Of a stretch of 64,000 nucleotides of DNA, positions 4,901 through 48,374 are shown piece after piece. The notes under the pieces are model-generated. The model made no database searches. It had not been told where the DNA came from and saw only the letters and a program-made list of their open reading frames with translations. Both the position numbers and the translations under genes were made by a program. The stretch comes from Prorocentrum cordatum. Its lineage: Eukaryota. The number at the start of each line of letters is the position of its first letter. The stretch's first letter is position 1. Where the stretch lies: contig CAUYUJ010000018.1 of assembly GCA_963575745.1 (NCBI GenBank), positions 1-64,000 of the forward strand. Reading direction: 5' to 3'.

Positions 4901-7494
4901 CATCGCTCGAGCAACTCGCGGAGCCAGGCCCAAGACACCCGTTCGAAGGCCTTTGATTGGTCCGCGCACAATACCGCAGTGGCCAGACGAAGGTCGCCCT
5001 CCTCCACCTCGCCGATATGGCGCTCGATCGCTGGTGCGTCTGGCCCAAGAAGTGCCTGCCAGAGCGGGCCTGGCGGAGAGGCTGGGCGCGGGGCCGGGTC
5101 CTCCAGGTGCCGGAAAGCGGCCGCGATGTTGGGGCCGCACGAGCCGCCCGCGACCGCCGCCTGCCCCTCAGCGAATTGGGCCTCGAGGGCCGGGCCTGCG
5201 GCCGAGGCAAGCGCGGCGCCGTATAGCCTCCGGAAGCAAGTCGGCAGCTGGAGGGGCCGCATGTCGCCCGCTTGCTCCCCATCGGGCTTCTTCAGTATCC
5301 ATATGAGCAAGTCCACCGATGGGCCCAGCACGGTGGGAAGCACTTGCGGCCACAACTGCGCGGCATGGAAGGCCTGTCCCAAAAGCGCAGCCACGAAGCG
5401 GGCGCCGATGTGATAGCACTCGTAAGGCTCAGCGTCCAGGCCGGCGGCGGAGCCGCAGGGCCCAAGCACCAAGGAGGCAAGGCGCCGCCAGCGCGGCCGC
5501 GGGCGTGCTGGCAAGTCCACCGCGCGGTGCAAGAAATAATCATCCAGGAGAGCAGAGGCCCGGGCAGGTGTGGGCGGCGCTGAGCCCCACAGCGGTTCCC
5601 GATTCTCCCAAAGGATCGCCTCCACTTCAGCTGGCTCGTCGTGCCACCGGCCGTGGGCATCGCGGACACCGCGGAGTGAGTGGACGCGGTTGAAAAGCTG
5701 GCGCCCTATGCGGAAGGGCTCAGCGAGCGCGGGCCTGGCCGCCGAAGCGCCGCGCTCCCACGGCCGAAGCCGCACTCGGCGGTGGTGGTGCTGCTCCCGT
5801 TGCCACAAGGCGAGCCATGCGGCAAGCGCCTCCTGGTTCAGCTCGCGGCCGTCCCAACCAAGGGCGCGCATCCACTCGCCAGTAGGTCCAGAAGGCGCAT
5901 GGGTACCACCACGGGCGGCAGCGCGAGCAAGCTCCGTGCCAGGTTCCGGCAGGGGGCGCCGCCTGCGCCAGTCCTCCCACCAGCTGGCCAGCATAGCCGA
6001 GAGGGCGGCACGCCCATACAGCATCAGGGCAGGGAGGACGGGAACCTCCTGGCCGGCGTCGTCGGCATCTTCTCCACCTCTTCTTCCTGCTGCAGCAGCG
6101 CGTCCCCCTCCAGCACCCTCGCCTCCGGGTAGGTCGGCCTCGCTTGCAGGAATCTCCTGGCCGGCGTCGTCGGCATTTCCTCCTCCTCCTCGTCTTCCTC
6201 CTCCTCCACCTCCTCCTCTTCCACGGCGCCTGCGCCCTCGCCCTCCTCCATCCCCTCCAGGCGGGTCAGCTGCACCTTCGCCGTCGGCTCCGGGCGGGCC
6301 GTAGTCTGTGCCGTAGATGTCCGCGTTGAGCCTGTCATGCAACGCGTCCTCCGGGCCCGCCGGTCGGTCTCCCCATGCCGCAGGGCGCAATCCTGAGAGG
6401 TCGACGTCTGGGAGGTCAAACGCTCGCCCCAGCAGCGCGTACCGCCTCCGCAAGTCCATGAAGGCCTCCTGGGGGAGGGCCTTGAACGTGGCCGGCGTGA
6501 GAGCCCGTACCGCCGTACCCTGCTGCACCTCAGGGCCGGCGAGAATAGCGGCATGATCGGAGAGGGGCAATCTCCATACCAACTGTGGTCTCCAGCGCCA
6601 CGCCTCTCGCAGCGGCGCCGCCACGAGATCCAGCTGAGCAGGAGGGCCGCGCGCTCCGCGTCGTGTGACCGCGGCGCCAGTGACTGCGGTGAGGCCGTGT
6701 GCGTGGAGAAGTGCATGAAATTCCGCAGCCAGCTCCTCCTCCCCGTCCCGCGGCTCGTGCAACTGGAAGTTCACATCGCCGCCGAGGTAAGTGGCCACCT
6801 CGGGGGCTGCAGGAAGAGCCGCACGCACGGCCGCCAGGGTGGCGCGCTGTGCGCCCGGCGGCAAGTACAAGGAGACGAAACGGACCAAGGAGCGGGCGAT
6901 GATCGTGTGGACGGCCAATGCACACCCAGGCACTAGCTCCGTAACGGTCGTCGCCTGCAGCGTCGCCGGGAGCAGCACGGCAACGCCGCCGGTAGCTCCG
7001 CCGCCTGGCCCAACCTGTGCCGGAGAAGAGTGGACCGTGGCCGGCGGAAACTGGGCTGCCCACAGCGCCTGCTCTGCTGCGCCCCAGTGCGTCTCCCCGA
7101 GCAGGACGATGCGCCCAGCGTCGAGCCACCCCTGGACCATCCGGCGCTTGGCCGAATTGTTCGTGGCGTGGGGGTCGACCAGCCACCTGATGTTCCAAGC
7201 GGCGAGGCGGAGGCCGGCGCCCGCGCGGTCCTCGCGCAGCGCGGCCAACAGTTGCGAGAGGCCTCGGCCTTCGCAAAGGCGGCCCCATGTGGCGCCCGGC
7301 GGCACCCGGGACCTGTGGAGGAGCAGCCACAAGGCGTTCGCCGAGCGGACCCTCGCTGACACCCCAGCGGCAGCGAGAGCGACCGCAAGCCTGTCCCGGA
7401 CCGCTGCCCAAGCACGCGTGCGGGCCTGGGGCAGTGGGGCGCCCGGAGGCGGCCGCCCGAGGGCGTCCAGGAGGAGGGCGGCGTCCGGATCCAT
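1933..7494 (-). CDS. LINE ORF2 polyprotein (1853 aa from the ATG at 7494): AP endonuclease, reverse transcriptase, Zn knuckle, SET-like segment, RNase H
   Basis: APE about 6541-7205: AWNIRWL, LGETHW, GGVAVLL, SLYLPP, GGDVN, LDLV, SDHAAI. RT about 4270-5460: SAAGLD, MRPLQL, DQSKAFERVSW, GMGGTASPLLW, FMDD, YLG. CPLC..EHLWHWCP about 3148-3205. RNase H about 1960-2410: FDGGSR, GAGAIL, AEAVG, GDN, RRLNSGADALA. Confidence 0.95.
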   Translation of the reverse strand: MDPDAALLLDALGRPPPGAPLPQARTRAWAAVRDRLAVALAAAGVSARVRSANALWLLLHRSRVPPGATWGRLCEGRGLSQLLAALREDRAGAGLRLAAWNIRWLVDPHATNNSAKRRMVQGWLDAGRIVLLGETHWGAAEQALWAAQFPPATVHSSPAQVGPGGGATGGVAVLLPATLQATTVTELVPGCALAVHTIIARSLVRFVSLYLPPGAQRATLAAVRAALPAAPEVATYLGGDVNFQLHEPRDGEEELAAEFHALLHAHGLTAVTGAAVTRRGARGPPAQLDLVAAPLREAWRWRPQLVWRLPLSDHAAILAGPEVQQGTAVRALTPATFKALPQEAFMDLRRRYALLGRAFDLPDVDLSGLRPAAWGDRPAGPEDALHDRLNADIYGTDYGPPGADGEGAADPPGGDGGGRGRRRRGRGGGGGGGRRGGGGNADDAGQEIPASEADLPGGEGAGGGRAAAAGRRGGEDADDAGQEVPVLPALMLYGRAALSAMLASWWEDWRRRRPLPEPGTELARAAARGGTHAPSGPTGEWMRALGWDGRELNQEALAAWLALWQREQHHHRRVRLRPWERGASAARPALAEPFRIGRQLFNRVHSLRGVRDAHGRWHDEPAEVEAILWENREPLWGSAPPTPARASALLDDYFLHRAVDLPARPRPRWRRLASLVLGPCGSAAGLDAEPYECYHIGARFVAALLGQAFHAAQLWPQVLPTVLGPSVDLLIWILKKPDGEQAGDMRPLQLPTCFRRLYGAALASAAGPALEAQFAEGQAAVAGGSCGPNIAAAFRHLEDPAPRPASPPGPLWQALLGPDAPAIERHIGEVEEGDLRLATAVLCADQSKAFERVSWAWLRELLERWRLPAWVTNGFLSLVVDRSVRALRAGRGGPPRRLRRSIGMGGTASPLLWNVCYDPIIAGLQRALGVADPTFMDDTACLVVGPRQALRVSFYLVYASWVAGLCVEAHSCALLVLPGAPLAVRRTCADLPVSMVDNGGDLHITGLIPELVRDVLAHRCGEDAVRGWRILGRACGCSVKTALVPAAHLDRWATCMAASPFGRAAARPASPYLGAALGSRALAAGAPRGWSAGALAAVRQGSWRRASGRLRERGAALGGAVGSPGRRAAAWNSYAAPLTEYPTHVGLPLPADESAATHAMATALRIAGTRWCPTWVATGIGPYCGARGAPRCPVAAARATAALASVRRDAWAPRPLREELGWWWGRLQQWAQQPQPAPLAPRPRGGPLGLADAALQLRRAAGARLWPQPRLRAARLGRALYVAAWAAARARCLGDWLLERSTTRRWAPSLGDEWVLLGVARSYTAAFHILRFLANGLPGAARWRPSDERPPRLCCVCARPACHAWRTAHSGQPALEWCADCFGPWADGHAWAARPLHLLPEELRADAARLQAARPRLAPPDAWGPSGYGSCPLCGAGEAGAEHLWHWCPAVALAWRRLFPAADAPAFGEALRAPGDLAQPVAAFTHQLVFHYMSLLGRATLQSPDAARRLVRAFAATSARGNADNSDDDDLDDPDAGDGAAATHAQPGPARQPAGLCPDAWGPPDPSCPDCAAIAAPALGMRSSAVPAALAREDRGGGAMVRRAVARRSAAPGDLLGCLTADSSPAAWIPAGAGWWPRPRRVPPALATAEWSVQHCPHCRCSRACLRAGQRLLPDEEVTVAWSPSPAHEDATWPLEVTFDGGSRRFDGEEASGAGAILWRHHLAGGAPTRVAEVVVALPAGPGSQPAEAVGCRHGLGLLRGLALPFRRARVAGDNTAAIRYGAGTGRFRRLELQAEIEEGLAPLAAEGWVLEFQAVRRRLNSGADALATEGVEWAAELRAQGDLRVQSRTRWL

Positions 7495-10400
7495 CACTGG
7501 GCGCGGCGGCCGTCTTCGGCCGCTGGGGGGTGAGCTGCAGCAGCGTGCGCAGCACTGGAGGCCGGCAGACCGGCTGCGGCGGGCACCGCGGGTGCGGCGG
7601 CCGGAGCGGATGCAGGACCGTCCTGCGGATGCTCCGCATCAGGTCCGGCCAGGCGCTGGGCGGGTCGCCGTGCGCCAAGCATGTCTCCGACCAGGTCGAG
7701 CGGTACAGGCCACTCGCGCGTGGGGCGGGGTGGGCCAGGAAGGCCGTCCACGTCCGCAGCAAGCCGGCGGTACTGGGAGAGCAACGCGGCTGGCGCGTGG
7801 TACGCCCGCGGATGCCCTGTCCTTCCCTGGAGCCAATCGCGCAGTGGTCCGCGGAGCCGCACCTGCAGGGCGGTCACGTCCAAATGGCTCCCGACCGCAT
7901 CGAACAACTGTCGGGCCTCCAGTCCGAGCCCCGCGAGATAGGGCCCATGGCCCGTGGCAGCCGCGCGCTCTGCGGGGGAGGGCATCCTCACCCCGTGGGC
8001 TGCGCCGTGGGTCTCCACCCAACAAGCGAATCTCTGTGCCTCGAGGTTGTTCTCCAGCGACCTCCCTCCCAGGACGAGCCCGAAGGCGGGGAGGAGGTGC
8101 CTGGGGAGGATGCGGCGGAATCGGGCCGCGACGTCGTTCAGCGTGAGCTGCCGCCAGGGCGCGTCGGCCGCGTATAGCATCGTGCGCGGGTGGTACTGGG
8201 GAGTGCTGTGCCGAATCTGATCCCCGAGCCCTGTGGAACGCGTCATCGGCGCAGTACCTCCATCGTCCCAGTGGGGCGCGAAGCCGCCCTCCCAGGGAGC
8301 CGGCCGGCGGACAGGCGTGAAGCTGGGATCCAGCACGATCGGCAGCGTGCTGAGGTAAAGGCGCCTCCGCGGGAAAGGAGCCCACGCCCTGGAGTCCACC
8401 ACCAGTACGTGTCCACCGTCGTCGAGATCGCCGAGGGCCCTGGTCATCGCCGCCCTATGGAGGGGGTGGGTGGTGGCTGCACTTTCCACCACGGCGTGAA
8501 CGTGACAGTCGGGCCGCAGGCCCTGCAGGCTCCAGACAACCAGCGGTATCGTCCAGAAGAGGTACGAGTCGTCGCCGCATAGGCCCTGGCGGCCTTGGTG
8601 CGGGCCCGCGGCATGCAGCTGCTGGGGAGGGGTGCCGGCGATCACCAGCACTAGGCTGCCTGGCGGGAAGCCCCGGCCGAAGCGGGCCAGCGGAGGGTCC
8701 GCCCCGCGGAAGAGGTCCCAGATGTCGCCAGCGAGCTTGACGTGAGGCGTCGTACCTGTGAGGCGAGCCTGGGTGGCCCAGCTGCGCTCAACCGCCGCGG
8801 CAAGTGTCGCGTCAGCCTCGGCGAAGCCTGACTGGGCTAATCCAGGATGGCGGAAGTCCCGCAAGAGTCCGTCCAACGCCACGCGCGTCATGCCAAGGCT
8901 GTCGAAGAGCGAGAGCAAGCAGACCGGCTGGGCAGGCAACGCGGCGGCCGTGTCGCTGGGCGCCGCGGCCTGAACGGCGGGCTGGTCCAGGAATCCAGCC
9001 CAGCTCTGGAATGCAGGGTCGCCTGGGCCCGTGGGGTCGCGGTCATGTCCAGGTGCCGCCGTTTCCGCTCCCGCCTGCCGGACGCGCATGCGGCGAGGCA
9101 AGGGGGGCCAGGCCCCGTGGGCGACGTCCTCGAGGCCCGGCTCGGCGGGCACAGGGGATCGGCGCCGGACTCCCGCCAGTCGCGGGGCAGGGCCAGCTGA
9201 GCCGCGGCGGCGGGCCGCAGCGCGGGCCCCGGCGCCGCTAGCACCATGTCCGCGCCCTCGGTCGCGGCCCCGGCTGCCGAGGGGCGCCGTCGCAACTGCG
9301 CCGTCCGCGCGGTCCCCGGACGAAGGGGGGGCACCTGGTGCCGCTGCGGCGGGCGCTGCTGGTGTGCCCGGCGTGCTCCGGACGGGGTTCCGTGACGTCG
9401 ATGCTGGTGGTACCGGCGCCGGTGTTGCTGCTGGAGTCGGAGCTACTGGCGCTGACGTCGGTGCCGCTGGTACTGACGTCGGTGCTGCTGGTACTGACGT
9501 CGGTGCTGCTGGTACGGACGTCGGTGCTGCTGGTACTGACGTCGGTGCTGCTGGTACGGACGTCAGTGCTGCTGGTACTGATGTCAGTGCTACTGGTGCT
9601 GACGTCGGTGTTTCTGTTGGAGTCCGAGCTGATGTCAGTGCTGCTGGTGACGGCGGCGCTGGTGCTGGTGCTGGCGTCAGTGTTGCTGCTGGTGCGGGCG
9701 CTGTCGTCCGAGTTGGTGCTGGAGCTGACGCCGGTGCGGCTGCTGGTGCTGGCGTCGGTGCTGAAACCGGTGCCGACGTTGACGTCGGTGCTACTGCGCG
9801 TCCTAGCGCCGGTGCTGCTGCTGTCGGTGGTGCAGCTAGGTCTGGAGCCACCGTCGGTGCTGCTGTGGACGTCGGTGATGCTGCTGGTGCGGACGTCGGT
9901 GCTGCTGCCGGTGCTGGCGCTGACGTCGGTGCTGCTGCTTGCATGGTCGTCGGCGCGGCCGTCTGGCCGGATCCGCCGCCGCCATTGCGGTCACTGCTGA
10001 GGGCCTGACCGTCGCCCGAAAGGTCTGCAACAGCACCAAGATGCAACGCCCTCGCTCCGCCTTGGTGGGCAAGCTGCCCGGGATGCTCTTCTCCGAGGCG
10101 CAAGGGGGCAGTCTGGCCCGGGGCAAACAGCTGCGGCCGCCCTTGTGGCGGCAGTGTCGGGGGGGCCTCGGCGGAGGCGGGGCCGGCCCTGGGCGCGGCA
10201 ACGGCTGCTGGCGCGGGTGCTACTGGCGAGACTGGAAGCACGGGCGCTGGCGCCGCAGCACCAGTTGGCAGCGCGAGCGCGCCCGAAGGGCCGGAGAGCG
10301 ATCCGGTGGCGGGCGCTGCAGGGGGAGCCGTGCCAGCGCTGGAGGCTAGCGCTGCTGCTTGCACGAGTCCATGCTGCGGGCGACCGTTTAGGTAGCCACC

Positions 10401-13271: not shown

Positions 13272-16200
13272 TCAGGTAAGGCTGGTCAGCCTCATCAGCA
13301 AGCGGGCCCATGCCCCCGACGTGACCAGGGGCGCCTCGCCGCCAGGGCACGGGGATGGTTGTGTCGGCGCCGTGGCCGAAGCGGACGGCGGGCCAGGCGG
13401 GGGAGAGCCTGGCGGCGGCGCGGCTCCTCGGGGGGCTGCAGGTACTGGTACTGAAGTCGGTGCTACTGCTGGAGTCGGAGCTACTGGTCCTGACGTCGGT
13501 GCTGCTGTTGCTGGCGTCGGTGCTACTGGAACTGACGTCGGTCCTACTGGCACTGACGTTAGTGCTGCTGCTGCAGTCGGAGCTACTGGTACTGCCGCCG
13601 GTGCTGCTGGTACTGCCGTCGATGCTTCTGGTCCTGACGTCGGTGCTTCTGGTGCTGGCGCCGGTGCTGCTGGGAGGAACGTCGGTGCTACTGGTACTGA
13701 CGTCGATGCTGCTGCTGGAGTCGGAGCTACTGGTACTACCGTCGGTGCTGCTGGTAGGGACGTCGGTGCTGCTGGTACGGGCGTCGGTGCTGCTGGTACT
13801 GACGTCGATGCTGCTGCTGGAGTCTGAGCTACTGGTACTGACGCCAGTGCTGCTGGTACTGCCGTCGGTGCTTCTGGTGCTGACGTCGGAGCTACTGGTA
13901 CTGACGTCGGTGCTGCTGGAGCTGACGTCGGTGCTACTGGTAATGCCGTCGGTGCTACTGGAACTGCCGTCGGCGCTGCTGCTGTAGGCGGAGCTACCGG
14001 TACTGACATCGGTGCTGCTGGTACTAACGTCGGTGCTAGTGGTACTGACGCCGGTGCTGCTGGTACTGACGCAGGTGCTGCTGGTACTGCCGCCAGTGCT
14101 GCCGGTACTGACGTCGTTGCTGCGGCCGGAGTCCGAGCTACTGGTACTGACGCTGGCGCTGCTGGTAGGGACGTGGGTGCTGCTGGTAAGGACGTCGGTG
14201 CTGCTGGTACAGACGTCGGCGCTGCTGCTGGAGTCGGAGCTAATGGTACGGACGTCGATGCTGCTGGTACTGACGCCGGTGCTACTGATACTGACGTCTG
14301 TGCTACTGGCACTGACGTCGGTGCTACTGGCACTGTCGTCGGTGCTGCTGCTAGAGTCGGAGCTGATGCCATTGCTGCTGTTGACGTCGCCGCTGGTGCT
14401 GTCGTCTGTGCTGTTGCTGGTGCGGGCGCTGCCGTCGGAGCTGGTGCTTGCGTCGGTGCCGCTGTTGACGTCGGTGCTGCTGCTGGAGATGGAGCTGACG
14501 TCAGTACTGCAGCTGACGTCGGTGCTGCTGCTGGTGCTGGCGTCGGTGCTGAAGCCGGTGCCGACGCTGACGTCGGTGCTTGTGCGCGTCCTAGCGCCGG
14601 TGCTGCTGTTGACGTCGGTGCTGCAGCTAGGTCTTGAGCTGGCGTCGGTGCTGCTGTGGACGTCGGTGATGCTGCTGGTGCGGACGCCGGTGCTGCTGCC
14701 GGTACTAGCGCTGACGTCGGGGTTGCTGCTGCTGGTATGGCCGTCGGTGCGGCTGTTGAGGTCAGTGCTGCTGCTGTTGATGCTGTCGGCTGCGACGCTG
14801 TTCCTGCGGGCGTGGGCCTCGATGCTGTCGCCGGGCGCGCCCCCTGCTGGTAGCCCTCGATGGCGGCGAAATCGTTGCCTGCCGCCAGACTTTGCGATGG
14901 GGCTTGGCCCGGCTCTGCCGCGCGATCGGAGGCCGCGGAGGCCGGTGGGCCCTCAGGGGCGCCGCCGACAAGGCCTGGCCGAGACGGCCTCGTGCCACCT
15001 TGCTCCACGTCTCTGAGGGCCGCGGCGGCGGCAGGCGATGCAGCAGCTGTCCCCGGTTCGGGGCCCGTCGGGATTGCTGGCGCCACACTGTCGGTGGCCG
15101 TGATGCCGTCGCCGCCCAGGTCTGCTACTAGCGCTGGCTCCGACGCCGGACCTCTGGACCCCTGGGCCGTCGGATGCGCGCCAGGCAGGCGGTCGTCCAT
15201 GGAGTCGCCGGACGATCTGCCTGCCGCTACGGGGGAGGTCTCCAGGCCGCTCGTCGCCGCCTGGTCGTGGTCGTTGCTCGACTCCGCGGCTGCTGCACGC
15301 TGGGCGACGCCGCCCTGACCTGCCTCGTTCGCAACTGCCCGAGATTCGGGGAATGCCAGCCCATCCTCGTCGCGGGCGGCTGAGGGTTCCGGCTGTGATG
15401 CTGCCGCGTCTGGCATCGGCGGGTCGCCGTCAAGCTCAGCCCATGGCAAACGGCAGGCGGGGCAATACACAGGGAACCATTCGTGCGGTCGGACGCGCGG
15501 CGGCGGTGGAACGCCTGCTCGCTGCCTCCGCCACTCCTGCATGCAAGCGGCGTGCATGCGGTGCCCGCACCCCGGCCATCTCGTACCATCGCCGTCGCCA
15601 AAGGGCTCCAGGCAGACCGTGCAGTGCTCGTTCCCTCGCGCCAGGCTTGTGCCCGCCTCTTCGCTGGTGGAAGCTTGGTGCCGCCGTAGGGCGGTTTGCC
15701 CCGCCGACAGAGCCGTGAATAAGTCGAGATCGAGATACGTCGTCTGAAGCAACTCCGCGATCTGGCCAGGGCACAGCGGGTCGTAGGGCTCGACCTGGAT
15801 CCGCGAGACCGCGCTCAACATTCGCGCGAGCCCGGCTGGGGTGAAGCACCCTTGCTCGGCGAACCACTCCGCCAGATCCCGGAAGGGCTGGGCGTTGGTC
15901 GCCGACCGCACGAGGGCCGGGAGGAGCTGCTGGGACAAGTGGCACGGCAAGGTTACCCAAATGGCCTGCGCGAGCCAAGAGGCTATGTCGGTGGTGCCTC
16001 GCGCCAGCAAGGGGGCCTCGCCTGCCTCACCAGATAGGAGTCTGGTGATTTCGGCCGCCCTCGCGTTGTCCACCGAGGCGTCCGTGAGCATCTGGCTGCG
16101 CGCCCGAGCCGCTGCCGGGTTAGGCTCTTGGACCTGCATCTCTGGCGGAAGCTGCCGGAGCTCGGCGTCGTTCAGGGCGTCCTCGTCCGAGTCGGAATCG

Positions 16201-19200
16201 ATTGCCAACACCTGCGGACCTCCCCAAGCCCCATCAGTGAGCCGCTCATCTCCGTCCGCTGCGACATCCGTGACGTCGATAGGCCGCAGCTCCCGGCGCG
16301 TCTGCACCAATGGCCGCTGAAAGTCCGGAGGGGCTGGCAGGGCCGCGTGGGCTCCATGGGCCTCGCGCCGCAAGTCGGAAGCTGGATGGAACGCCTCCAT
16401 CATGGCGAGGTCGCCCGCGCGGGCTTCGGCCATCACGATCTCCTGCAGCACGTCGGGGATGTAAGCGCCTGGGTGGTCGGGGGCCCTGACAGGCCGACGT
16501 TCGCCCTGGTAGGTCGCCCACGGGCCGTGCAAGGCCGCTAGAGCGCAGAGCACGCGGTGCGCGGAGACCAAGTTGTCCACCCCCCTTTGGTTCCACCAAG
16601 CGCGCACTCGTCGTACGCCATCCGTGCCCATGTCCATCTCCCTGCATTGGTGCACCAAGATCTGGAAATCGTCCTCGTGGACCGTGCCCCAGATGAGGGG
16701 GTTCGTGAGGCTGCTCCACGTGAAATCTGGCCGGACCGCTCCAGCCCGCCGGATGGAGGCGACGGTGGTGCGTAGCCCGTCGAACCACCACTGCACTGCA
16801 GGCGCGGTGGCCCGGCCGGGTGGTCGCCTGGAGGAGCGAGGCGGCTCCTGCCGCTGGGCTGCGGGCTGCTCATCTGAGCCGGAACGGGCAATGTCGAAGA
16901 GGCTGGCCACCAAGGCGGCTCCTCCTGGCGCGGCGGCGCTGCTGCTCCCGAGGCTGAGCTCGGCCAGCCGAGCCGGGGGCAGGAGGGGGACTGGTCGCGC
17001 CGCTCCGTTAGGATGGGGCTCGGCCTCGTCCACGCTGGCTGCAGCCCCTGCCGGGCGTGCCCGTGCAGCGGGTCCGTCCGGTATCGCTGGCGTGGCTAGG
17101 CGCTGGAGCAGGCGCCAGCTCGTACTGCTCGCGCCTGCGCGCGGGGGCACTGGGAGCAGGACCTCCGCGAGGCGCGAATCCCTGGTGCCGTCACCACGGT
17201 GCTCGGGTGGAGCGCCGTCGGCGTCGGCGGGTCTGGCGCCGCTGCCACCTGCGAAGGCAAGCAGAGTAGCTGGCGGGCCCTGCTCTTGCGGGCTGGCGGG
17301 GCGGCCAGCACCAATCGCCCGAGCCCCAGGGAGTCTCGAAACTGAATGGCCTTCCTCCTCGAGCTGCTCGCCCTCCCTCCTCAATTCGACTTCCGCCGCC
17401 TCCTCCTCCTCCTCCTCCTCCGGCGCCTCCTCTTCCTCCTCGGCCCGGAATGCTCTCGGCGAGGCGCTCTGAGGCTCCCTCTCCACAACGGGAGGGCTCA
17501 TCTCTTCGGCAGCGGCGGCGGAGCTTCCATTCGCGGCGGGGCTTCTTCCATTCGCGGCAGGGACGCTCTCAGCTTCATCAGTCCGTGCGTCCTCCTGGTC
17601 GTACTGCCCTCCTCTCACGCCGCCGCCTCCTCCGCCTCCGCCTCCGCCTCCTCCTCCTCCTCCCACTCCTCCTCCTCCTCCTTCTTCTCTTGTTCTCTGG
17701 GCTGGCGGCGGGCCGCGGCCGTGCTGGCCACAGCCGTGGCGGTGCAAGTGGTCTCGGGGGTGCCGTGTGGGCTCCTCGCGCGCGTCGTCAGCCGCTCCGG
17801 CGTCGCCGGCAGGGTGGCCTGGCGGGGCAGAGGAGGCGCGACGAGTCGGCGCCTGCGCTGCGGCGGGCGCAGCAGAAGCCCCGCCGGGCCGCGCGTGGCC
17901 CTCCGCTGCGGGAGGGCGTACCAGCACAGTCGTCGGGCGCGGAGGGCTGGCGCGCGTCACCTCCTGCTCTGGGCGGTCACGGTCCGTTGCTTGTGGGCTG
18001 CTGGCCGCTGAAGCGGCCTCCGCGGCGGCGGGCATGCCTCCGCGCAGGCGCGAGACCAGGTCCAATGTCGACCCCTTCTGGATGCCGTAATCCGACACCA
18101 TGTCGCCATCTTGCAGTTGCTTCCCAGCGAAGATTAAGCGCTGCTTGGCGAGATGGGCGCCCCGTCTGCCCCGAATCAGGGCCCGTATGTGGCCGACCGT
18201 AGTGCTGCTCCAAATGCTGAGGGTGAGGGTGCCCTTCGGAGTCGTCACGAAGACCTCCATGTCGCCGGGGTTGAGTCTTCCACGGTGGTGCGTACCGCTG
18301 CGCATGGCCGTCGCGCAGGTCGGATCGGGGATGGCGTGCGAGTCGTGATGACGCTGCTGGCTGCCGTGTTGCTGCGGACTGCCGTCGCTATGCTCCTCGC
18401 GTGCGCTGCAGCAATTCTTCTCCAAGCTTCTGCGCACGAACTCGCGCTCCGGCGCGATAGTGAATGGGTAGCTGCGCTCGGAGAGGCTGTCCAGCAAGCG
18501 ATCCGTGCGACTGGGGCCGTGAAGATCGAGGCGCAGAATGGCACGCGGCAGCGACCAGTCCGCGCCGACGGGAGCTGCCAGCCTCACACGGTCGCCCAAG
18601 CTTCTGCCCCTGATGATGGTACGACCAGAGGCATTGGTGATGCTCTGGGCCTCGGTGTGGGAGATGCTGGCGCTGGTGATGCTGGCGTGGATGTTGGAAT
18701 CGGTGCAAACATCGCTGCTGCTGGCTTTGGTGCAGGAAACGGTGCTGGTGCCGGTCCCGACGTCGATGCCGCAGGCGTCTGCGCCGGATTCGAACCCGGC
18801 GTCATTGTCGAAGGCGTCGGAGCCTGAGTCGGTGCCGGAGTTGGTGCCAGAGCCAGTGCTGGCGTCGATGCTGCTGGTGTCGGTGCCAGAGCCGGTGCAG
18901 GTCTCGATGCTGCTGGCAGCGGTGCCGAACTTGGGGCTGGCGTCGGTGCCAGCGTCGATGATGCTGGCGTCGGTGCCGGTGTCGGGGCCTGCTTCTCTGC
19001 CGGCGTCGCTGCCGCGCGGTGCCGGCGCCGGTGTCGGCGTCGATGCTGCTGGCGCCGGTGCTGGCTTCGGAGCTGCTGGCGTCGGTGCCGCTGGTGTCGG
19101 TGCCGGAGTCGCTGCCAGCACCAGTGCCGGCGTCGATGCTGCTGGCGTCGATGCAACAACCGCTGCAATCGCCGATGCGGCTGGGGTCGTCGGTGGCGTC

Positions 19201-21353
19201 GGAGTCGGTGCCGGCGTCGTTGCTGGCGTCGATGTTGGCAGCGTCGGTGCCAGACTCGGTGCTAAGATCGGTGCCGGTGTCGGTCCCAGGGTTGTAGCTG
19301 GCGTCGGTGCTGGAGTCGGTGCCGGCGTCGATGCTGCTGGCGTCGGTGCTGGCGCCGGAGCTGCTGGCGTCGGTGCCGTTGCTGGTGCCGGGGCCGCTGC
19401 CAGCACCGGTGCCGGCGTCGATACTGCTGGCGTCGATGCCGCAGTCGTGGCCGTCGCCGATGCGGCTGGCATCGTCGGTGGAGTCGGAGTCGGTGCCGGC
19501 GTCGTTGCTGGCGTCGATGTTGCTGGCGTCGGGGCCAGACTCGGTGCTAAGATCCGTGCCGGTGCCGGTCCCAAGGTGGCTGCTGGTGGCGTCGGTGCCG
19601 GAATCGGTGCCGGCGTCGGTGCTGGCGCGTCGACGCTGCCAGCCTCGGTGCCGGCCTCTATGCTGCTGTCGTCTGTGCCGGAGTCAGCGCCAGTGTCGAC
19701 GGAGCTGGCGTTGGCGACGGAATCGGTGCCAGCGTCGATCCTGCTGGCGTCGGCGCAGGAGTCGGTGCCAACGTCTGTGCTGGCGTCGGCGTCAGAGTCC
19801 CTCTTGGCGTCGATGCCGCTGGCGCCAGTACCAGACCAGGCGTCGGTGCTGGCGTCGATGCTGCTGGCCAGCGCGGACAGAATATCGCAGCCAGACGGCA
19901 CCTGGCGGTCGTCGTACAAGTCCTGCCCGTCGCGAGCATCGTGCCTCGCACCGTCGCTAAAGCTCTTTCTGGTGGTACGGCCAGAGGCGTCGGTGATGCT
20001 GTGGGCACTGGTGTGGGAGGTGCTGGCGCCTGTGATGCTGGCGTCGATGTTGGAATCGGTGCAACCATCGATGCTGCTGACATCGGTGCTGGAATCGGTA
20101 CTGGTGCCGGTGCCGACGCCGATGCCGCTGGCGTCTATGCCGGATCCGAACCTGGCGTCAATGCCGATGGCGCCGGTGCCAAAGTCAGTGCTAGAGTTGG
20201 TGCCAGAGTCAGTGCTGGCGTCGATGCTGCTGGTGTCGGTGCCAGAGTCGGTGCAGGTCACGGAACTGCTGGCGTCGGTGCCGTAATTGAGTCTGGCGTC
20301 GGTGCCAGCGTCGATGATGCTGGCGTCGGTGCCGGTGTCGGGGCCTGCGTCGGTGCTGGCGTCGCTGCTGCTGGCGTCGGTGCCAGCGTCGGTGTCGGCG
20401 TCGATGCTGCTGGTGTCGGTGCTGGCTTCGGAGCTGCTGGCGTCGGTGCCGCCGGTGTCAGTGCCGGAGCCGCTGCCAGCACCAGTGCCGGAGACGATGC
20501 TGCTGGCGTCGATGCAACAGCCGCTGCCGTCGCCGATGCGGCTGGGGTCGTCGGTGGCGTCGGAGTCGGTGCCGGCGTCGTTGCTGGCGTCGATGTTGGC
20601 AGCGTCGGTGCCAGCCTCGGTGCTAAGATCGGTGCCGGTGTCGGTCCCAGGGTTGTTGCTGGCGTCGGTGCCGGAGTCGGTGCCGGCGTCGGCGCCGGCG
20701 TCGATACTGGCAGCCTCGGTTCTGGCCTCGGTGCCGGCGTCGTTGCTGCTGTCGTCGGTGCTGAAGTCAGCGCCAGTGTCGATGGAGCTGGTGTTGGCGC
20801 CGGAAGTGGTGCCGGCGTCGATCCTGCTGGCGTCGGCGCAGGAGTCAATGCCAACGTCTGTACTGGCGTCGGTGCCGGGATCTCTGTTGGCGCCGATGCC
20901 GCTGGCGCCAATACCAGACCAGGCGTCGGTCCTGGCGTCGATGCTGCTGGCCCTCGCGGACAGTATAGCGCAGCCCGGCGGAACCTGACGGTCGTCGTAC
21001 AAGTCGAGCAAATCGTGAGCATCGTGCTCGATGCGGAAGCGATGAACCTGCGACGGCACGGAGATCAGGCCCAGCGCAACGGGGATCGCGCCCAGCACAA
21101 CAGAGTCGTGTTGTGAAAGTTTGTCGTCGCGCTGGGAGCGGTGGTGCTGCTGGCCACTGTCGACTCGGTCAAGTGGCCTATGCGAGATGCTGCTGAGCGG
21201 GTCTCCTTGGGCCTTGTGGTCGCCGCTGTCTCCCTGGCTGCTGTTCGGTTCACCGCGGTGCTCCGGGCCACCGCCGCGCGCGGCCGTCGTGCAGGTCGCC
21301 GTGCGAGTTGTGATTGCGCTGCTGGCTACTGTGCTCTTGTGAACTGCCGTCAC
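13272..21353 (-). CDS. LINE ORF1, middle part: low-complexity repeats, actin relics, ubiquitin domain (18036-18260), RING-H2 finger (about 15450-15625)
   Basis: MEVFVTT...[36 protein letters not shown] (ubiquitin); [19 protein letters not shown] (C3H2C3 RING); [27 protein letters not shown] (actin-like). Confidence 0.82.
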
Positions 21354-22818
21354 GATGGCCCTCGACGGCGCTGCAGTACTTCGTCTCGAGGCCTCTGCGC
21401 CCGATCTCGCGCTCCAGCGCGAGGATGAATGAGTAGCCGCGCTCGGGGAGGCTGTCCAGCAAGCGCAAAGTTGCGCGCGGCAGCCCCCAGTCCGCGCCGA
21501 TGGTAGCCGTCAGCCCCGCGCTGCCGCCGAAGCTGCTGCCAGTAAGGGCGGTGCAACCAGAAGCGTCCAGCGAGAACGCCACCAGGGTGCCCACGTCGTG
21601 CGCCAGCTGGTCACGCGGGCCGTGGCACCGCTGCAGGCCAGCATTGGGGGTGCTGCGGTATGACTGCTGTCTGCTGCCGTGTAGCTGGCTGCAGTGCTGC
21701 CGGCTGCTGTCGTGCTGGGCGCGGCGGCGCTGCTGACTGCCCTCGCGCTGTCCTGAAGAACCACCCCTGTCGGAGCGCAATGCTTCGTCCTGCCTAGGGG
21801 TGGAACCAAATGTGACCAATTCTGTGCCGTCATCTCCTGGGGCCCGGCCGTCAGCGCAGACACCCTGGGGACGCGGAGGGCGTGGGGGAGGAGGAGTGGT
21901 GTAGTGGTTGGAATTCGGGAGGGCTTGGCAGGAGGGCCCGAAGTCCTGGACTGAGAAAGGCACGCATTCCACCCTCAACTCCCCGAGGTTGCGACAGTCT
22001 GGGTCGGGTCGCAAGGTGACGTACGGCAGGGCGAAGCTCTCGCACATGTGCACCCCATGCAGCACACCGTCGCCAGAGGCCTTGAAGGTGCCGGTGGTGG
22101 TGGTGCTGCTGCCGAAAACGTACAGCGGGAGCACCGCCTCGGTCAGCGTCTGCACGGGAGTCTGAGAGGGACCTGGGCCGGCAAGGTCGCCGCTCAAGAT
22201 CGCGTGCGGCGAGGCGGGCTCCGCGCTCATGGGTGCCTCGGGCGTCCCACTGTCGTCAGAGTCCATGGCGATGTCGGAGCTGTGGTTTGGAGTGTGACCA
22301 GAGGGCGCCAGCTGGATGACCACGTCGGTTGTCACCATGCTGATGGCCTCGGGCGTGGCCTGGACCGGAAGCGCCAGGTGCTCCAGCAGGGCAATGCAGA
22401 AGTCGATGGGGCACCTGGGCGTCGGCACGTCGCACATGCTCCGCGCCTCGCCGTCCACGCGGCAGGCTCCTGGGCCCGAGGCGATCGCCATGTCGCTCGC
22501 AGCTCCTGCGGCGAGTGCGGGGGCTGCCACGCCGTCAATGCGGCCTGGCGGGAAGGCGGATAACCCGCGGGGCAGCGGCGAGGCGGCAAAGGTCCTGCTG
22601 GGCACCCCAGCGCGGTCGGCAGCGGGAGCTGCGGCCGCGTCGCCCAGGCGCACGACGTCCGCCTCGTCGAAAGCCCCGTCGAAGTCGGAGGTGACAGGTC
22701 CTGAGCCGGGACCTGCCGGAGAAGAAACACGGGGAGGGGAGGAGGTAGTTGGAGGCCCTGGGTCCTCTCCACCTGGCGGCGGCGCGGCCCCAGCCGCCGC
22801 CGCGGGGTCGCGGCTCAT
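21250..22818 (-). CDS. LINE ORF1, N-terminal part (likely ATG at 22818), with two actin-derived segments; probably joined to the next ORF across a frameshift near 21300
   Basis: First ATG after the SL cluster, in a GCC-ATG context; [30 protein letters not shown] and [24 protein letters not shown] resemble actin residues about 137-220. Confidence 0.65.
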
Positions 22819-22890: not shown

Positions 22891-22938
22891 CTTGAGCCGG
22901 GGTGGCTTGAGCCATGCTTGAGCCAAGCTGGCTACGGA
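22891..22938 (-). other. Tandem dinoflagellate spliced-leader relics: one full-length and two truncated units
   Basis: Minus strand reads TCCGTAGCCAGCTTGGCTCAAG (20/22 to DCCGTAGCCATTTTGGCTCAAG), then CATGGCTCAAG, then CCACCCCGGCTCAAG. Confidence 0.92.
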
Positions 22939-23024
22939 TCGAAAGATCGAACAAATAAGGGGGATCGAACAGTGTCGTAATTCCGTCGCACGGACGACCC
23001 TTCCCTTTGTCCCTTCCCCGCCGT

Positions 23025-32691: not shown

Positions 32692-33537
32692 ATCAGAGTG
32701 AGGGGGCCGAACGGTCATTCACTGTCCCTGGGTGCGTGGCTGAAGTGTAATTCCGCGGTGCGGATTCTCGTTGTTGAATATTATTACTTCTAAAGAATAA
32801 TTATTGTTGGGCCCCCTGGTGCACGCCCCCCCCCGCCGCGCCTAGGCCGCAGCCACGTTTTCATCATTTTCGTGAGGAAGCCTCAGGTAAAACGATGTGA
32901 TCCAGATCCGGTTGTTTTGTTGTAATCCGTTTTCCCTTGCAAAAAACACTATAAAATGACATTTCTTGTTCTAATATAATCAAATTTCAAGAATCCCTTG
33001 CAAAAAATAAGGTAAAGTGGACATTCGCGCGCGCAAGACGAAATCCTTCCAAAAGCTTAGTGTTCGGAGCGATTTTAACATAAAAACATCAAAAAACCAA
33101 TGGTTTTTCAACAAAAAAATGTCAAAATCTCATCCCGCGCGCTCTTGCGGATTCGTAGGAAACCCAACACTTTTTAAACATTTCTGTCAAACGGGCTTTT
33201 GCGAGCAACTTTTTCGAACTTCTGCAACAACGGTTGCGCACCTGCCAGGGCCATCATCCCTGTCAAATAATACCATGCGGGACACATTCGTTTTTTCTTC
33301 GCGCGCGCACGCCGTCGTCGTCGGCCGCGGGGCCCTGAATAGTAGCCACGGTCGTCCGCATGCCACGAAGTGAAGTGTCCGAACGTCATAGGGCGGGAAG
33401 CTGGGTGTGGGTGGTGGCGAAGAGTCGTTTGGAAATTTGGTAGAGCTTGAACCGGCCCCCCCACAAAGTGGGGGTATTGCCCGCCTCCTATGAAAACCCT
33501 GGCACTGGTGAGAACGGAGTGTCCCCACGTGCTAGTA

Positions 33538-33596
<59 letters not shown>
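32692..33596 (-). repeat. Left copy of an AT-rich inverted repeat of about 0.9 kb (partner 57430-58329)
   Basis: Reverse complement matches 57430-58329; identical ORF translations at 33187..33528(-) and 57462..57803(+). Confidence 0.92.
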
Positions 33597-33598
<2 letters not shown>

Positions 33599-34630
33599 GT
33601 TGTCGTCGTCCCACCCGCAACCCGCCCCGCGACCCACCCGCGACCCACCCCGCGACCCACCCACACCCGCGACCCACCCGCGACCCACCCGCGACCCACC
33701 GCGACCCACCCCGCGACCCACCCCGCGACCCACCCCGCGACCCACCCCGCGACCCACCCGCGACCCACCCGCGACCCACCCGCGACCCACCCGCGACCCA
33801 CCCGCGACCCACCCGCGACCCACCCGCGCCCACCCGCGACCCACCCGCGACCCAAACCACGTTCAAGGTACAAACCACAATTTTCGGCGCCTGCGGCTGT
33901 TTTTTTGGCATTCCTTCCAGCATTCCTTCCAGGTTGAGAGCCCGCGACCCACCCCGTGACCAACTCGCGACCAACCCGCGACCCAAACCACGTTCAGGGT
34001 ACAAACCACATTTTTCGGCGCCTGCGGCGGGCATTTTTTGCATTCGCTTCAGGTGGAGAGCCCGCGGCCCACCCGCGACCACGTTCAGGGTACAAACCAC
34101 ATTTTTCGGCGCCTGCGGCGGGCATTCTTTGCATTCGCTCCCGGCGGGGAACCCGCGGCCCACCTGCGACCCAAACCACGTTCAGTGTACAAACCATTTT
34201 TTGGGGCGCCTGCGGCGGGCTGCTCTTGCATTCCTTCCAGTTGGAGGTGGAGAGCCCGCGGCCCACCCGCGCGACCTAAACCACGTTCACTGAACAAACC
34301 AATGCCGCACAAGCGCGGCGGCGGATGTTTGCATGCCGCCTGAGCCCGCAAGGACCTCTTCAAGCCCCGCGCATCCACACCAGCCAGTCCAGCAACTCTG
34401 CCCTGGCAAGTTGCCTTAATCAAAGAAGGCGGGGAGCATAAAATGGAAAAAAAAGGATTGCACTGCAGTTACTTTGGGAAAGGAGGGGGAGGCAGGAGGA
34501 GTAAACAGGGGACGAGGAGAACGCGGAAAAAGAGAGGATGTAAGGATAATGCGGCGATATCAAAGGAGGAGGAGCAGGAGGACGAGGAGGGGGAGGAAGG
34601 GGAGGAGGAGGACGAGGAGGGGGAGGAGGG

Positions 34631-42325: not shown

Positions 42326-42393
42326 CTGCCTGCCCCCAATACCCATCTGTGAGTTCGTACCAATACCGGCACGCGCAGACCATGGTGGGGGAC

Positions 42394-45554: not shown

Positions 45555-45744
45555 CTGACGGATAACGACGCCAAGCGGTCAAATTTCATGCATTCTCGAA
45601 ACAACCCGGGCCCCAGGGACGCCGAAGGGGCCACGCAGCTTTGAACGCGGGGCCCCATCGGGGTGGTAAGACTGGCAACGGGCATCGAAAAAATGTAATA
45701 GACTTTCAAGATGGGGCAGAACGCTCGGCGTCGGTATCCGGTGC

Positions 45745-48352: not shown

Positions 48353-48374
48353 AGAGCCAGAACCAGAACCAGAA

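What the first reader, a model, noticed from the sequence alone, without database searches (positions are those of the whole stretch)
18033..18260. Internal ubiquitin ending LRGG|M: a possible host-DUB cleavage site in ORF1
Seen: a 75-aa ubiquitin-like domain retains [10 protein letters not shown], the K48 and K63 equivalents and the terminal RLRGG, and is followed directly by Met. Lysines equivalent to K6, K27, K29 and K33 are replaced. Known: deubiquitinases cleave linear fusions after GG, as in ubiquitin-ribosomal protein fusions and pestivirus ubiquitin insertions. Inference: cleavage would remove the low-complexity/actin N-terminus and free the RING-RRM-Dnmt portion.
Basis: partly seen in the sequence, partly recalled or inferred. 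Interest (0 to 1): 0.72.

Follow-up and report, generated by a model that had tools for sequence, protein, structure and literature searches.

The report
Ubiquitin module inside a dinoflagellate LINE
A giant jumping gene of a red-tide dinoflagellate carries a real ubiquitin domain with an intact RLRGG tail in the middle of its first protein, which most likely lets the host's own ubiquitin-cutting enzymes split that protein in two.

Summary
On the minus strand, 18036-18260 encode a 75-aa ubiquitin domain (Pfam PF00240, E 9.8e-15) ending RLRGG, followed by Met (18033-18035). It lies inside ORF1 of a ~21-kb GC-rich non-LTR retrotransposon of Prorocentrum cordatum type. The parts in order are: relict spliced leader, ATG at 22818, N-terminal region and repeats, ubiquitin, helical domains, RING-H2, an in-frame TGA, a DNMT-like end, a TGATG overlap, then ORF2 with APE and RT. 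The ubiquitin is internal: a second genomic copy (P0092) reads through from an upstream Met, and codon usage upstream is coding-like. The window's copy has an 11-nt frameshift at about 21297. All 3 near-identical copies keep RLRGG-M. More telling, a distant relative (P0050, about 30% identical in the flanking domain) also has a ubiquitin domain ending LRLRGG at the same place, although it has lost K48, K63 and I44. This favours a cleavable processing module cut by host deubiquitinases, but cleavage is inferred and untested. No actin or RRM was found. The DNMT assignment rests only on language-model features. I found no report of ubiquitin in a LINE ORF1. Verdict: a new variant of a known kind, interest about 0.6.

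The parts
22891..22939 (-). 5' end of the element. A relict dinoflagellate spliced leader at 22939-22918 matches the recalled 22-nt DinoSL at 20 of 22 positions. Two truncated relics ending GGCTCAAG follow.
   Evidence: The SL motif is recalled from memory, not from a tool. The 16-mer with up to 3 mismatches is expected 0.54 times per window by chance, so the argument rests on its full 22-nt extent and its position about 100 nt upstream of the first ATG.
21250..22818 (-). N-terminal part of ORF1 (P0004 frame). The first ATG is at 22818-22816. In this copy the frame ends at a stop at 21250 because of a frameshift.
   Evidence: First Met of the frame. The codon-usage score turns positive at about 22830. 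Residues 1-333 of copy P0092 match 22491-21298. No Pfam family and no ESM Atlas hit.
21296..21298 (-). Copy-specific frameshift. There is an 11-nt gap relative to the paralogous unit, and 4 residues are missing relative to copy P0092, which reads on in frame.
18261..21296 (-). ORF1 region upstream of the ubiquitin, in the ubiquitin's frame. It holds two large duplicated units (spacing 1.08-1.36 kb), TDASSID-type repeats and a PAPT-rich stretch (about 19000-19700).
   Evidence: Coding-like codon usage at 21270-19600 and 19100-18260, but not in the PAPT stretch. The P0092 gene model skips 20933-18585.
18036..18260 (-). 75-aa ubiquitin domain ending RLRGG.
18033..18035 (-). Met directly after GG. 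This is the proposed P1' residue and the new N-terminus of the released ORF1 body.
   Evidence: The same junction is present in P0005 and P0092.
16803..18032 (-). Low-complexity linker, about 410 aa, rich in A, P, G and E.
   Evidence: The first 32 residues are modelled with pLDDT below 50.
16359..16802 (-). Conserved helical domain, which I call 'WS' (W..L..V..R.G.VP..YTWS..NP.IW..WW..GV). It is the first folded domain after the ubiquitin.
   Evidence: Relatives. pLDDT about 85-96. No solved-fold match in whole-model searches, which is inconclusive.
15657..16118 (-). Second conserved helical domain (W.xLPCH...).
15450..15626 (-). RING-H2 finger, C-x2-C-x14-C-x-H-x2-H-x2-C-x29-C-x2-C.
   Evidence: Pfam zf-RING_2 scores 28.5 bits (cut-off 27.3) on the sub-sequence and 26.9 bits on the whole ORF. 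Structural matches are to RING E3 domains only: Foldseek probability 0.6-0.9 with E above 0.3, and VIA Z 5.0-5.6.
13272..13274 (-). Single in-frame TGA (context ACC TGA CCG) between the two halves of the long frame.
   Evidence: The P0092 model skips this region, so I cannot tell whether the stop is shared.
7497..8960 (-). DNMT-like C-terminal part of the long frame.
   Evidence: ESM Atlas features: 29 of 30 hits share the PF00145 set, score 0.96. Pfam gives no hit at E<=10 and PDB phmmer none at E<=1.
7492..7496 (-). TGATG, where the ORF1 stop overlaps the ORF2 start by one base.
1933..7494 (-). ORF2, with an APE-type endonuclease (about 6553-7200) and a reverse transcriptase (about 4642-4992).
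   Evidence: Pfam PF03372 E 1.7e-07 and PF00078 E 6.4e-09.

Best explanation
The ubiquitin domain is a built-in processing module of the giant ORF1 polyprotein of a dinoflagellate LINE. The full-length, spliced-leader-capped mRNA is translated from the ATG at 22818. Host deubiquitinases of the kind that process polyubiquitin and ubiquitin-ribosomal-protein precursors recognise the folded ubiquitin and its RLRGG tail and cut the G-M bond. This gives two products. The first is an N-terminal protein that ends in ubiquitin-GG. The second is the ORF1 body, which starts with Met-Pro and carries the WS domain, the LPCH domain, the RING-H2 and, if the TGA at 13272 is bypassed or absent in active copies, the DNMT-like part. 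Shown by computation: the fold, the tail, the disordered flanks, the internal position, the repeat of the arrangement in other copies, and a distant relative with the same arrangement. Inferred: the cleavage itself, the enzyme, and what the two products do.
For: (1) The domain is a genuine ubiquitin with an intact C-terminal RLRGG, and P1' is Met rather than Pro. It is modelled as a beta-grasp at pLDDT 82-96 between low-confidence flanks, so the scissile bond should be accessible. (2) It is internal. Copy P0092, from another contig, reads from an upstream Met through the ubiquitin to the RING and beyond. Codon usage upstream is coding-like in the matching frames. The only spliced-leader relic in the element lies 4.6 kb upstream at 22939, and none lies near the ubiquitin ATG. 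(3) RLRGG-M is present in 3 of 3 copies: the window, P0005 and P0092. These copies are about 99% identical in ungapped blocks, so this alone has little weight. (4) The distant relative P0050 has a ubiquitin domain (Pfam E 5.5e-10) ending LRLRGG, then a 37-aa linker, then the same WS domain. The two are colinear with the window, with BLASTP E 3e-08 for the ubiquitin and 1e-10 for the WS domain. The two ubiquitins share only 23 of 60 residues. P0050 has lost K48, K63 and I44, yet the last five residues are identical in both and in ubiquitin. Both differ from the reference ubiquitin at 21 positions, and at 8 of these they agree with each other (7 if one artefact of the reference is dropped). This suggests one old acquisition followed by selective retention of the tail. 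(5) From established knowledge, not tested here: linear ubiquitin fusions are cut after G76 by cellular deubiquitinases unless Pro follows, and integral non-processed UBL domains usually lack the diglycine.
Against: There is no experimental or expression evidence. No RNA run was listed as holding the stretch. The laid DNA contigs covered the ubiquitin with only one 212-nt and one 55-nt piece. The near-identical copies give no power for dN/dS. Only 1 of 6 distant lineages with visible upstream sequence has the ubiquitin, so it is not a general feature of the family. The WS-domain tree is unresolved, with 6 of 7 inner branches open, so one origin versus two cannot be decided from it. P0050 is a single 253-aa prediction on a 1228-nt metagenome contig, and its model starts at ubiquitin residue 17. 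L8P, H68D and L71S alter surfaces that some deubiquitinases use. The window's own copy is broken upstream by an 11-nt frameshift and has an in-frame TGA. The P0092 and P0005 gene models contain predicted introns that may be artefacts.
Confidence: 0.55

Rival explanations
1. This is an N-terminal ubiquitin fusion. The ORF1 body is translated from the ubiquitin's own Met, by internal spliced-leader trans-splicing, a sub-genomic transcript or leaky scanning, as in the UBA52 and RPS27A type of precursor. The ubiquitin is then removed by deubiquitinases and acts mainly as an expression or folding aid. The upstream frame would be a separate product or would not be needed.
For: The domain starts with its own Met in a purine(-3)/G(+4) context. 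In the 1083 codons of the ubiquitin's frame upstream there are only two other Met codons, at residues 680 and 1069. The upstream region is built of large duplicated units and short repeats, as in some LINE 5' regions. Many frames are open there for compositional reasons. N-terminal ubiquitin fusions to unrelated proteins are common among the protist and metagenome hits, for example P0007 and P0010.
Against: A second copy has an uninterrupted frame from an upstream Met into the ubiquitin. Codon usage is coding-like in frame right up to the ubiquitin. There is no spliced-leader relic near the ubiquitin, and the only one in the element is at its 5' end. The 15 codons between Met 1069 and the ubiquitin are in frame.
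Confidence: 0.15
2. This is a non-cleaved integral UBL domain. It stays in the polypeptide and works with the downstream RING-H2, for example by recruiting an E2 or docking to the proteasome or to ubiquitin receptors, as the UBL domains of UHRF1 or Parkin do. The diglycine would then be an unselected leftover.
For: A UBL, a RING-H2 and a DNMT-like part lie in one frame, an arrangement that recalls UHRF1 with DNMT1 (recalled knowledge). Five of seven lysines and L8, H68 and L71 are changed, so the domain is not under the constraints that act on free ubiquitin.
Against: RLRGG is the longest block identical in the window, P0050 and ubiquitin, while the I44 and lysine positions used in recognition are not kept in P0050. 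About 410 residues of low-complexity linker separate the domain from the next folded domain. Relatives with the same WS, LPCH and RING body lack any UBL, so the RING part does not need it.
Confidence: 0.2
3. This is a passenger. A piece of a host polyubiquitin transcript was captured by the element and is drifting without function. GG-M would simply be the junction between two ubiquitin repeats.
For: GG followed by M is the junction found in polyubiquitin. Only about half of the residues still match ubiquitin. Most relatives lack the domain.
Against: The frame is intact in 3 of 3 copies. The fold is predicted with high confidence. A relative about 30% identical in the neighbouring domain keeps a ubiquitin domain with a perfect tail at the same place. 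After the Met nothing resembles a second ubiquitin repeat.
Confidence: 0.07

Closest known systems
Natural linear ubiquitin precursors (polyubiquitin; ubiquitin-eL40/UBA52 and ubiquitin-eS31/RPS27A fusions)
   Same: Ubiquitin ending RLRGG is joined by a peptide bond to the next polypeptide. The junction GG-M is the polyubiquitin junction. Processing is expected from cellular deubiquitinases (recalled knowledge).
   Different: Here the ubiquitin is only 52% identical to ubiquitin and lacks K6, K11, K27, K29 and K33. It sits hundreds of residues inside a retrotransposon protein rather than at the N-terminus of a small host protein.
Host ubiquitin insertions in cytopathic pestivirus (BVDV) polyproteins (recalled knowledge, no call)
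   Same: A ubiquitin sits inside a parasite's polyprotein directly upstream of the part to be released, so the host enzyme does the cutting.
   Different: Those are recent captures, nearly identical to host ubiquitin, in RNA virus genomes. Here the module is old and diverged, lies in a DNA-integrated LINE, and is shared with a distant relative.
SymbioLINE-Dnmt, LINEs of Symbiodiniaceae with a DNMT in ORF1 (de Mendoza et al. 2018, PMC5890265; passages of the main text read)
   Same: A dinoflagellate LINE whose ORF2 has APE and RT, with an ORF1 that ends in a DNMT-like region.
   Different: The main text of that paper contains neither 'ubiquitin' nor 'RING' (0 occurrences each). Here Pfam does not recognise the DNMT. 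CpG observed/expected is about 1.0 rather than depleted. ORF1 is several thousand residues long.
2A / StopGo peptides at the N-termini of LINE ORF1p and ORF2p (Odon 2013, PMC3708506, search listing and abstract; PMC3894237, passages; bioRxiv 10.64898/2026.06.17.732966, passages)
   Same: A device placed near the start of a LINE protein that separates an N-terminal piece from the functional body without an element-encoded protease. Two relatives of this ORF1 carry an RIGEAS[N/H]PG[P/L] motif upstream of the same WS domain.
   Different: The mechanism is different: post-translational cutting by deubiquitinases against ribosomal skipping. The window's element has no NPGP in its frames. The motif in the relatives is not canonical D[V/I]ExNPGP and is absent from the 2A list of Rao et al. 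2025 (0 hits).
LINE ORF2 proteins with N-terminal deubiquitinase domains (Josephin or OTU) in algae and in Symbiodinium necroappetens (bioRxiv 10.64898/2026.06.17.732966, passages)
   Same: These show that ubiquitin-system parts recur in algal and dinoflagellate LINEs.
   Different: Those elements encode the protease. This one encodes the substrate-like ubiquitin and a RING, and Pfam found no deubiquitinase domain.

Membership tests
Ubiquitin family domain (PF00240) | Profile match above the curated cut-off | tested here: met
   54.5 bits against 25.4, E 9.8e-15. The same holds in copy P0092.
Ubiquitin family domain (PF00240) | Beta-grasp fold | tested here: met
   The AF2 model has pLDDT 82-96 with strands and helices in beta-grasp order. 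No fold search was run on this model.
Processed (cleavable) linear ubiquitin fusion | C-terminal L-R-G-G joined directly to the next polypeptide, with P1' not Pro | tested here: met
   RLRGG followed by M. 3 of 3 copies have it. P0050 has LRLRGG followed by S.
Processed (cleavable) linear ubiquitin fusion | Ubiquitin at the N-terminus of the precursor (UBA52/RPS27A type) | tested here: not met
   The ORF continues upstream in frame. P0092 has 566 residues before the domain. Codon usage upstream is coding-like.
Processed (cleavable) linear ubiquitin fusion | Actual cleavage by a deubiquitinase | not testable with these tools
   This needs proteomics or a reporter assay.
Conjugation-competent ubiquitin | All seven lysines and the L8/I44/H68/V70 patch | tested here: not met
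   K6T, K11 deleted, K27R, K29L, K33R, L8P, H68D. K48, K63, I44 and V70 are kept.
APE-type non-LTR retrotransposon (LINE) | One ORF with an APE endonuclease followed by a reverse transcriptase | tested here: met
   PF03372 E 1.7e-07 and PF00078 E 6.4e-09 in P0003.
SymbioLINE-Dnmt | ORF1 carries a C5 DNA methyltransferase domain recognised as PF00145 | tested here: inconclusive
   Pfam gives no hit at E<=10 and PDB phmmer none. By ESM Atlas features, 29 of 30 hits share the PF00145 set.
SymbioLINE-Dnmt | CG depletion of the element | tested here: not met
   CpG observed/expected is 0.92-1.07 across the element.
SymbioLINE-Dnmt | Target-site duplications, conserved UTRs, phylogenetic placement of the RT | not tested
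   The 3' end was not delimited and no RT tree was made.
2A / StopGo separation peptide | D[V/I]ExNPGP motif | tested here: not met
   No [NH]PG[PL] occurs in the element's reading frames except one HPGL inside the DNMT-like part.
RING-H2 E3 ligase domain | Eight zinc ligands C3H2C3 with RING spacing, and a RING fold | tested here: met
   Spacing read. Pfam 28.5 bits against 27.3. Structural matches are to RING domains only, at modest scores. Ligase activity was not tested.
Integral non-processed UBL + RING proteins (UHRF1 or Parkin type) | UBL without a processed diglycine end | tested here: not met
   RLRGG is retained here and in P0050.

The most novel reading that the evidence does not exclude
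The element encodes its own ubiquitin-like modifier together with its own E3. After the cut, the N-terminal protein ends in a free ubiquitin-GG and is conjugated to targets with the help of the element's RING-H2. Targets could be the ORF1 body, the RNP or host chromatin proteins. This would couple ubiquitin marking to the DNMT-like module, much as UHRF1 couples to DNMT1, and the retrotransposon would be writing a ubiquitin mark as part of integration or of evading silencing.
Probability: 0.06. Interest if true: 0.85.

Novelty: new variant of a known kind. Interest (0 to 1): 0.6.

Why it matters
LINE proteins are generally thought not to be processed. The known exception is the 2A skipping peptide. 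A ubiquitin used as a host-cut separator inside ORF1 would be a second, independent way for retrotransposons to make several proteins from one frame. It would also be the first case outside RNA viruses of a genomic parasite keeping a ubiquitin for this purpose over long periods. It further shows that DNMT-associated dinoflagellate LINEs can carry a ubiquitin and a RING-H2, which ties these elements to the ubiquitin system. The idea can be tested directly: the expected cut and uncut peptides can be looked for in existing P. cordatum proteome data.

Tried and rejected
1. Whole-genome search of the window's own assembly: no genome is held.

2. Earlier findings of this scan: nothing by place, sequence or words.

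3. Sequencing runs: no RNA holder was listed. I laid four DNA runs at 80% likeness. Only two short X1 contigs touched the ubiquitin, with one listed difference at 18221, which equals the L14F change seen in P0005. The metagenome runs held exact 151-nt pieces elsewhere in ORF1. This gave no information on transcripts, splice sites or copy variation.

4. Related DNA loci:
- The JGI metagenome scan with a WS-domain alignment matched 180 pattern stretches, but none was confirmed as a relative. A first alignment had been too diverse to use.
- A degenerate DNA pattern from the ubiquitin gave 1 locus, L001, which is a chance match with no related ORF.
- The viral-contig scan matched 42 stretches, none confirmed.

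5. Word-based protein searches found only two other copies, P0005 and P0092, and otherwise generic ubiquitins.

6. Actin and RRM: no Pfam hit in any ORF tested.

7. N-terminal region: no Pfam hit and no ESM Atlas hit.

8. Fold searches of the ORF1 body matched only the RING. The WS and LPCH domains were not searched alone, so nothing can be said about their folds.

9. WS-domain tree: unresolved.

10. The RIGEAS[N/H]PG[P/L] motif of the relatives, tested as a known 2A:
- It was not found in print (0 papers).
- It is not in the supplementary list of Rao et al. 2025.
- I therefore keep it only as a lead.

11. I first favoured the ubiquitin Met as the true ORF1 start, at 60%. I dropped this.
Full report
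**What is at the coordinates.** The finding lies on the minus strand. Window 18260-18036 encodes a 75-residue ubiquitin domain that starts with Met and ends RLRGG. The next codon (18035-18033) is Met, followed by PAAAEAAS.
- Pfam PF00240 matches at E 9.8e-15, with 54.5 bits against a cut-off of 25.4.
- Single ubiquitin chains of the PDB match at about E 1e-18.
- 39 of 75 residues equal a ubiquitin repeat.
[11 protein letters not shown]48 and K63 are kept. K6, K27, K29 and K33 are replaced.
- K11 lies in a one-residue deletion. L8, H68 and L71 are changed. I44, V70 and R72-G76 are kept.
- An AlphaFold2 model built with nine aligned sequences gives the domain pLDDT 82-96 in beta-grasp order. The 46 residues before it and the 32 after it score below about 51.

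**Organism and element.** The closest database proteins are two 'unnamed protein product, partial [Prorocentrum cordatum]' entries. The flanking DNA has 50-63% G+C and the element about 68-73%. The P. cordatum genome paper reports a mean of 59.7% (PMC10666404, passages).

On the minus strand the element reads as follows.
- At 22939-22918 there is a 22-nt stretch that matches the dinoflagellate spliced leader at 20 of 22 positions. The leader motif is recalled from memory. Two truncated ...GGCTCAAG relics follow.
- The first ATG of the following frame is at 22818. This is exactly where a codon-usage score trained on the conserved parts of the element turns positive.
- That frame (P0004) runs to a stop at 21250.
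- The ubiquitin's frame (P0001, 2745 codons) is open from 21509 to a single TGA at 13272-13274. It continues after the TGA for 1925 more codons (P0002) to a TGA at 7494-7496.
- That last stop overlaps the ATG of ORF2 as TGATG.
- ORF2 has an APE endonuclease (E 1.7e-07) and a reverse transcriptase (E 6.4e-09).

The element is thus a LINE of roughly 21 kb. Its nearest described kind is SymbioLINE-Dnmt (PMC5890265). The main text of that paper contains neither 'ubiquitin' nor 'RING'.

**Is the ubiquitin internal or N-terminal?** I first favoured an N-terminal fusion for three reasons. The domain has its own Met. Only two other Met codons occur in the 1083 codons upstream. The upstream DNA is made of large duplicated units plus short repeats. 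Later evidence goes the other way.
- P0092, a 2276-residue gene model from another contig, starts in the P0004 frame. It passes without interruption into the P0001 frame and reaches the ubiquitin at residues 567-641. It goes on through the RING into the P0002 part.
- Compared with P0092 and with the paralogous unit just upstream of the ubiquitin, the window has an 11-nt gap at 21297/21298. The window's copy is therefore frameshifted there, and the long ORF is the intact state.
- Codon usage is coding-like in the P0004 frame from about 22830 to 21270. It is coding-like in the P0001 frame from 21270 to 19600 and from 19100 through the ubiquitin to about 15000.
- It is not coding-like in the PAPT-rich stretch (19700-19000) or in the APTSVPA repeats (14900-13300).
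- No spliced-leader relic lies near the ubiquitin ATG. None of the 9 loose matches in the window falls between 7837 and 22905.
- P0092 omits 20933-18585 (2349 nt, with GA...AG borders) and the stretch around the TGA. Whether these are real introns, copy differences or artefacts of gene prediction cannot be told.

**Conservation.** The three copies I could see (the window, P0005 and P0092) all have RLRGG-M. Within the domain they differ only by L14F (P0005) and A35T (P0005 and P0092). One X1 contig shows the L14F change. In ungapped blocks the window and P0092 differ at a handful of residues out of more than 1300. The family is therefore young and these copies say little about selection.

The informative result came from an exhaustive profile-free search with the region after the ubiquitin (residues 1525-2035).
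- It returned 56 proteins at E<=0.001.
- I read all of them, seven cluster members and P0092, 64 proteins in all. By motif, 24 of the 64 carry the WS and/or LPCH domain. The rest are generic RING proteins or repeats.
- One distant relative, P0050 (253 aa, on a 1228-nt metagenome contig), has a ubiquitin domain ending LRLRGG, then S, a 37-residue linker and the WS domain. Pfam scores its ubiquitin at E 5.5e-10, matching profile positions 16-72.
- P0050 is colinear with the window. BLASTP gives 3e-08 for the ubiquitin and 1e-10 for the WS domain.
- The two element ubiquitins share 23 of 60 residues. P0050 has R at K48, S at K63 and S at I44.
- The residues identical in both and in ubiquitin are QRL, G47, G53, SDY, S65, L69 and the whole tail RLRGG.
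- Both differ from the reference repeat at 21 positions, and at 8 of these they agree with each other (E24G, V26I, Q31R, K33R, L56V, N60G, E64G and one artefact of the reference). This hints at one shared acquisition.
- With 38% overall identity, five matches in a row at the tail would be expected roughly once in a hundred. This figure is crude and ignores site heterogeneity.

Against this, only 1 of 6 distant lineages with at least about 25 visible residues upstream of the WS domain has a ubiquitin. The six are P0034, P0036, P0038, P0050, P0069 and P0085/P0089. A tree of the WS domain is unresolved apart from the pair window+P0030.

**Relatives with another motif.** P0036 has RIGEASNPGP and P0034 has RIGEASHPGL upstream of the same domain. 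P0069 has a remnant, RILEHEAS. LINE proteins with N-terminal 2A peptides are known (PMC3894237 and bioRxiv 10.64898/2026.06.17.732966, passages). An exchange of one separating device for another at the same place would fit the cleavage reading. However, the motif is not the canonical D[V/I]ExNPGP. I found it in no paper. It is absent from the supplementary list of predicted 2A peptides of Rao et al. 2025, which does contain 135 Symbiodinium rows. I therefore treat it as a lead only. The window's element has no such motif in its frames.

**What would be released.** After the Met comes about 410 residues of low-complexity sequence. Then follow the WS domain (16802-16359, pLDDT about 85-96), the LPCH helical domain and a RING-H2 with all eight ligands. 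Structure searches with the whole 482-residue model matched only RING E3 domains, at modest scores: Foldseek E above 0.3 with probability 0.6-0.9, and VIA Z 5.0-5.6. The helical domains were not searched on their own.

The 'Dnmt' is not seen by Pfam at E<=10 or by PDB phmmer. By ESM Atlas features, 29 of 30 hits share the PF00145 set, with a score of 0.96. By eye, the place where I would expect the catalytic Pro-Cys reads PPQQ. That motif is recalled and was not tested by alignment.

**Mechanism.** The best-supported reading (0.55) is a host-cut separator. The folded ubiquitin and its RLRGG tail, set between disordered stretches, are recognised by cellular deubiquitinases, which cut before the Met. 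It is established knowledge, not tested here, that such enzymes cut linear ubiquitin fusions unless Pro follows. It is likewise established that integral UBL domains generally lack the diglycine.

The rivals are:
- an N-terminal fusion made from an internal start (0.15), in which the ubiquitin is still cleaved;
- a non-cleaved UBL that works with the RING (0.2);
- a functionless passenger (0.07).

The most novel reading not excluded is that the N-terminal product, ending in ubiquitin-GG, is itself conjugated with the help of the element's RING (0.06).

**Novelty.** Searches for ubiquitin in LINE ORF1 or in dinoflagellate retrotransposons returned nothing relevant among the rows listed. Term searches of the main text found no 'ubiquitin' in de Mendoza 2018, the 2026 adenine-methyltransferase preprint, Rao 2025, PMC3894237 or the 2A-like preprint. 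That last preprint does describe LINE ORF2 proteins with N-terminal Josephin or OTU deubiquitinase domains, including one from Symbiodinium necroappetens. Supplements of de Mendoza 2018 were not read. I rate the finding as a new variant of a known kind: ubiquitin-fusion processing, here in a retrotransposon.

Noticed in passing
window 22891-22939 (-): A relict spliced leader (20 of 22 positions to the recalled DinoSL) plus two truncated relics mark the 5' end of the LINE. This is the signature of repeated trans-splicing and retroposition. A uATG at 22912 opens a third-frame ORF that runs to 22535.
   Followed up: partly
window 13272-13274 (-) and 7492-7496 (-): A single in-frame TGA (ACC TGA CCG) splits the long ORF1 frame. 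It could be a copy defect, a read-through site or a true boundary between two ORFs. The ORF1 stop and the ORF2 start overlap as TGATG, which suggests termination-reinitiation.
   Followed up: partly
window 21296-21298 (-): This copy has an 11-nt gap that shifts the frame between the N-terminal region and the rest of ORF1. Copy P0092 reads through.
   Followed up: yes
window 7497-8960 (-): The DNMT-like region is recognised only by ESM features, not by Pfam. Where a Pro-Cys catalytic motif would be expected the sequence reads PPQQ, so the catalytic cysteine may be missing. The motif is recalled and was not aligned.
   Followed up: partly
window 1933-22818: CpG observed/expected is about 0.92-1.07 across the element. 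The CG depletion reported for SymbioLINE-Dnmt is not seen.
   Followed up: partly
window 40006-45578 (-): Helitron-like ORFs. One has weak Helitron_like_N and Rep matches (E 0.0013-0.0028). The next has a PIF1-type helicase (AAA_30, E 4e-12).
   Followed up: no
window 46961-46982 (-): A second spliced-leader-like relic (TTGGCTCAAG is exact, with 2 mismatches over 16 nt) lies upstream of ORF 45706-47175 and the Helitron-like ORFs.
   Followed up: no
relatives P0034, P0036, P0069: A motif RIGEAS[N/H]PG[P/L] sits upstream of the WS domain in distant relatives. It resembles a 2A peptide but is not canonical, and it appears in no paper or list that I searched.
   Followed up: partly
window 33091-33597 and 57393-57899: A 507-nt inverted repeat, 97% complementary, with arms 23.8 kb apart. 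Further inverted pairs lie at 33920-34602 and 36046-36727.
   Followed up: no
window 48239-50600 and 62425-63850: Very long arrays of short tandem repeats with periods of 12/18 nt and 9-15 nt. The 48-54 kb region also shows a strong AT skew.
   Followed up: no
hits P0007-P0010, P0026, P0027: Protist and metagenome proteins have near-canonical ubiquitin ending LRLRGG fused N-terminally or internally to unrelated domains (Clp-type ATPase, kinase, vWA). Ubiquitin fusions therefore seem widespread in these organisms.
   Followed up: no
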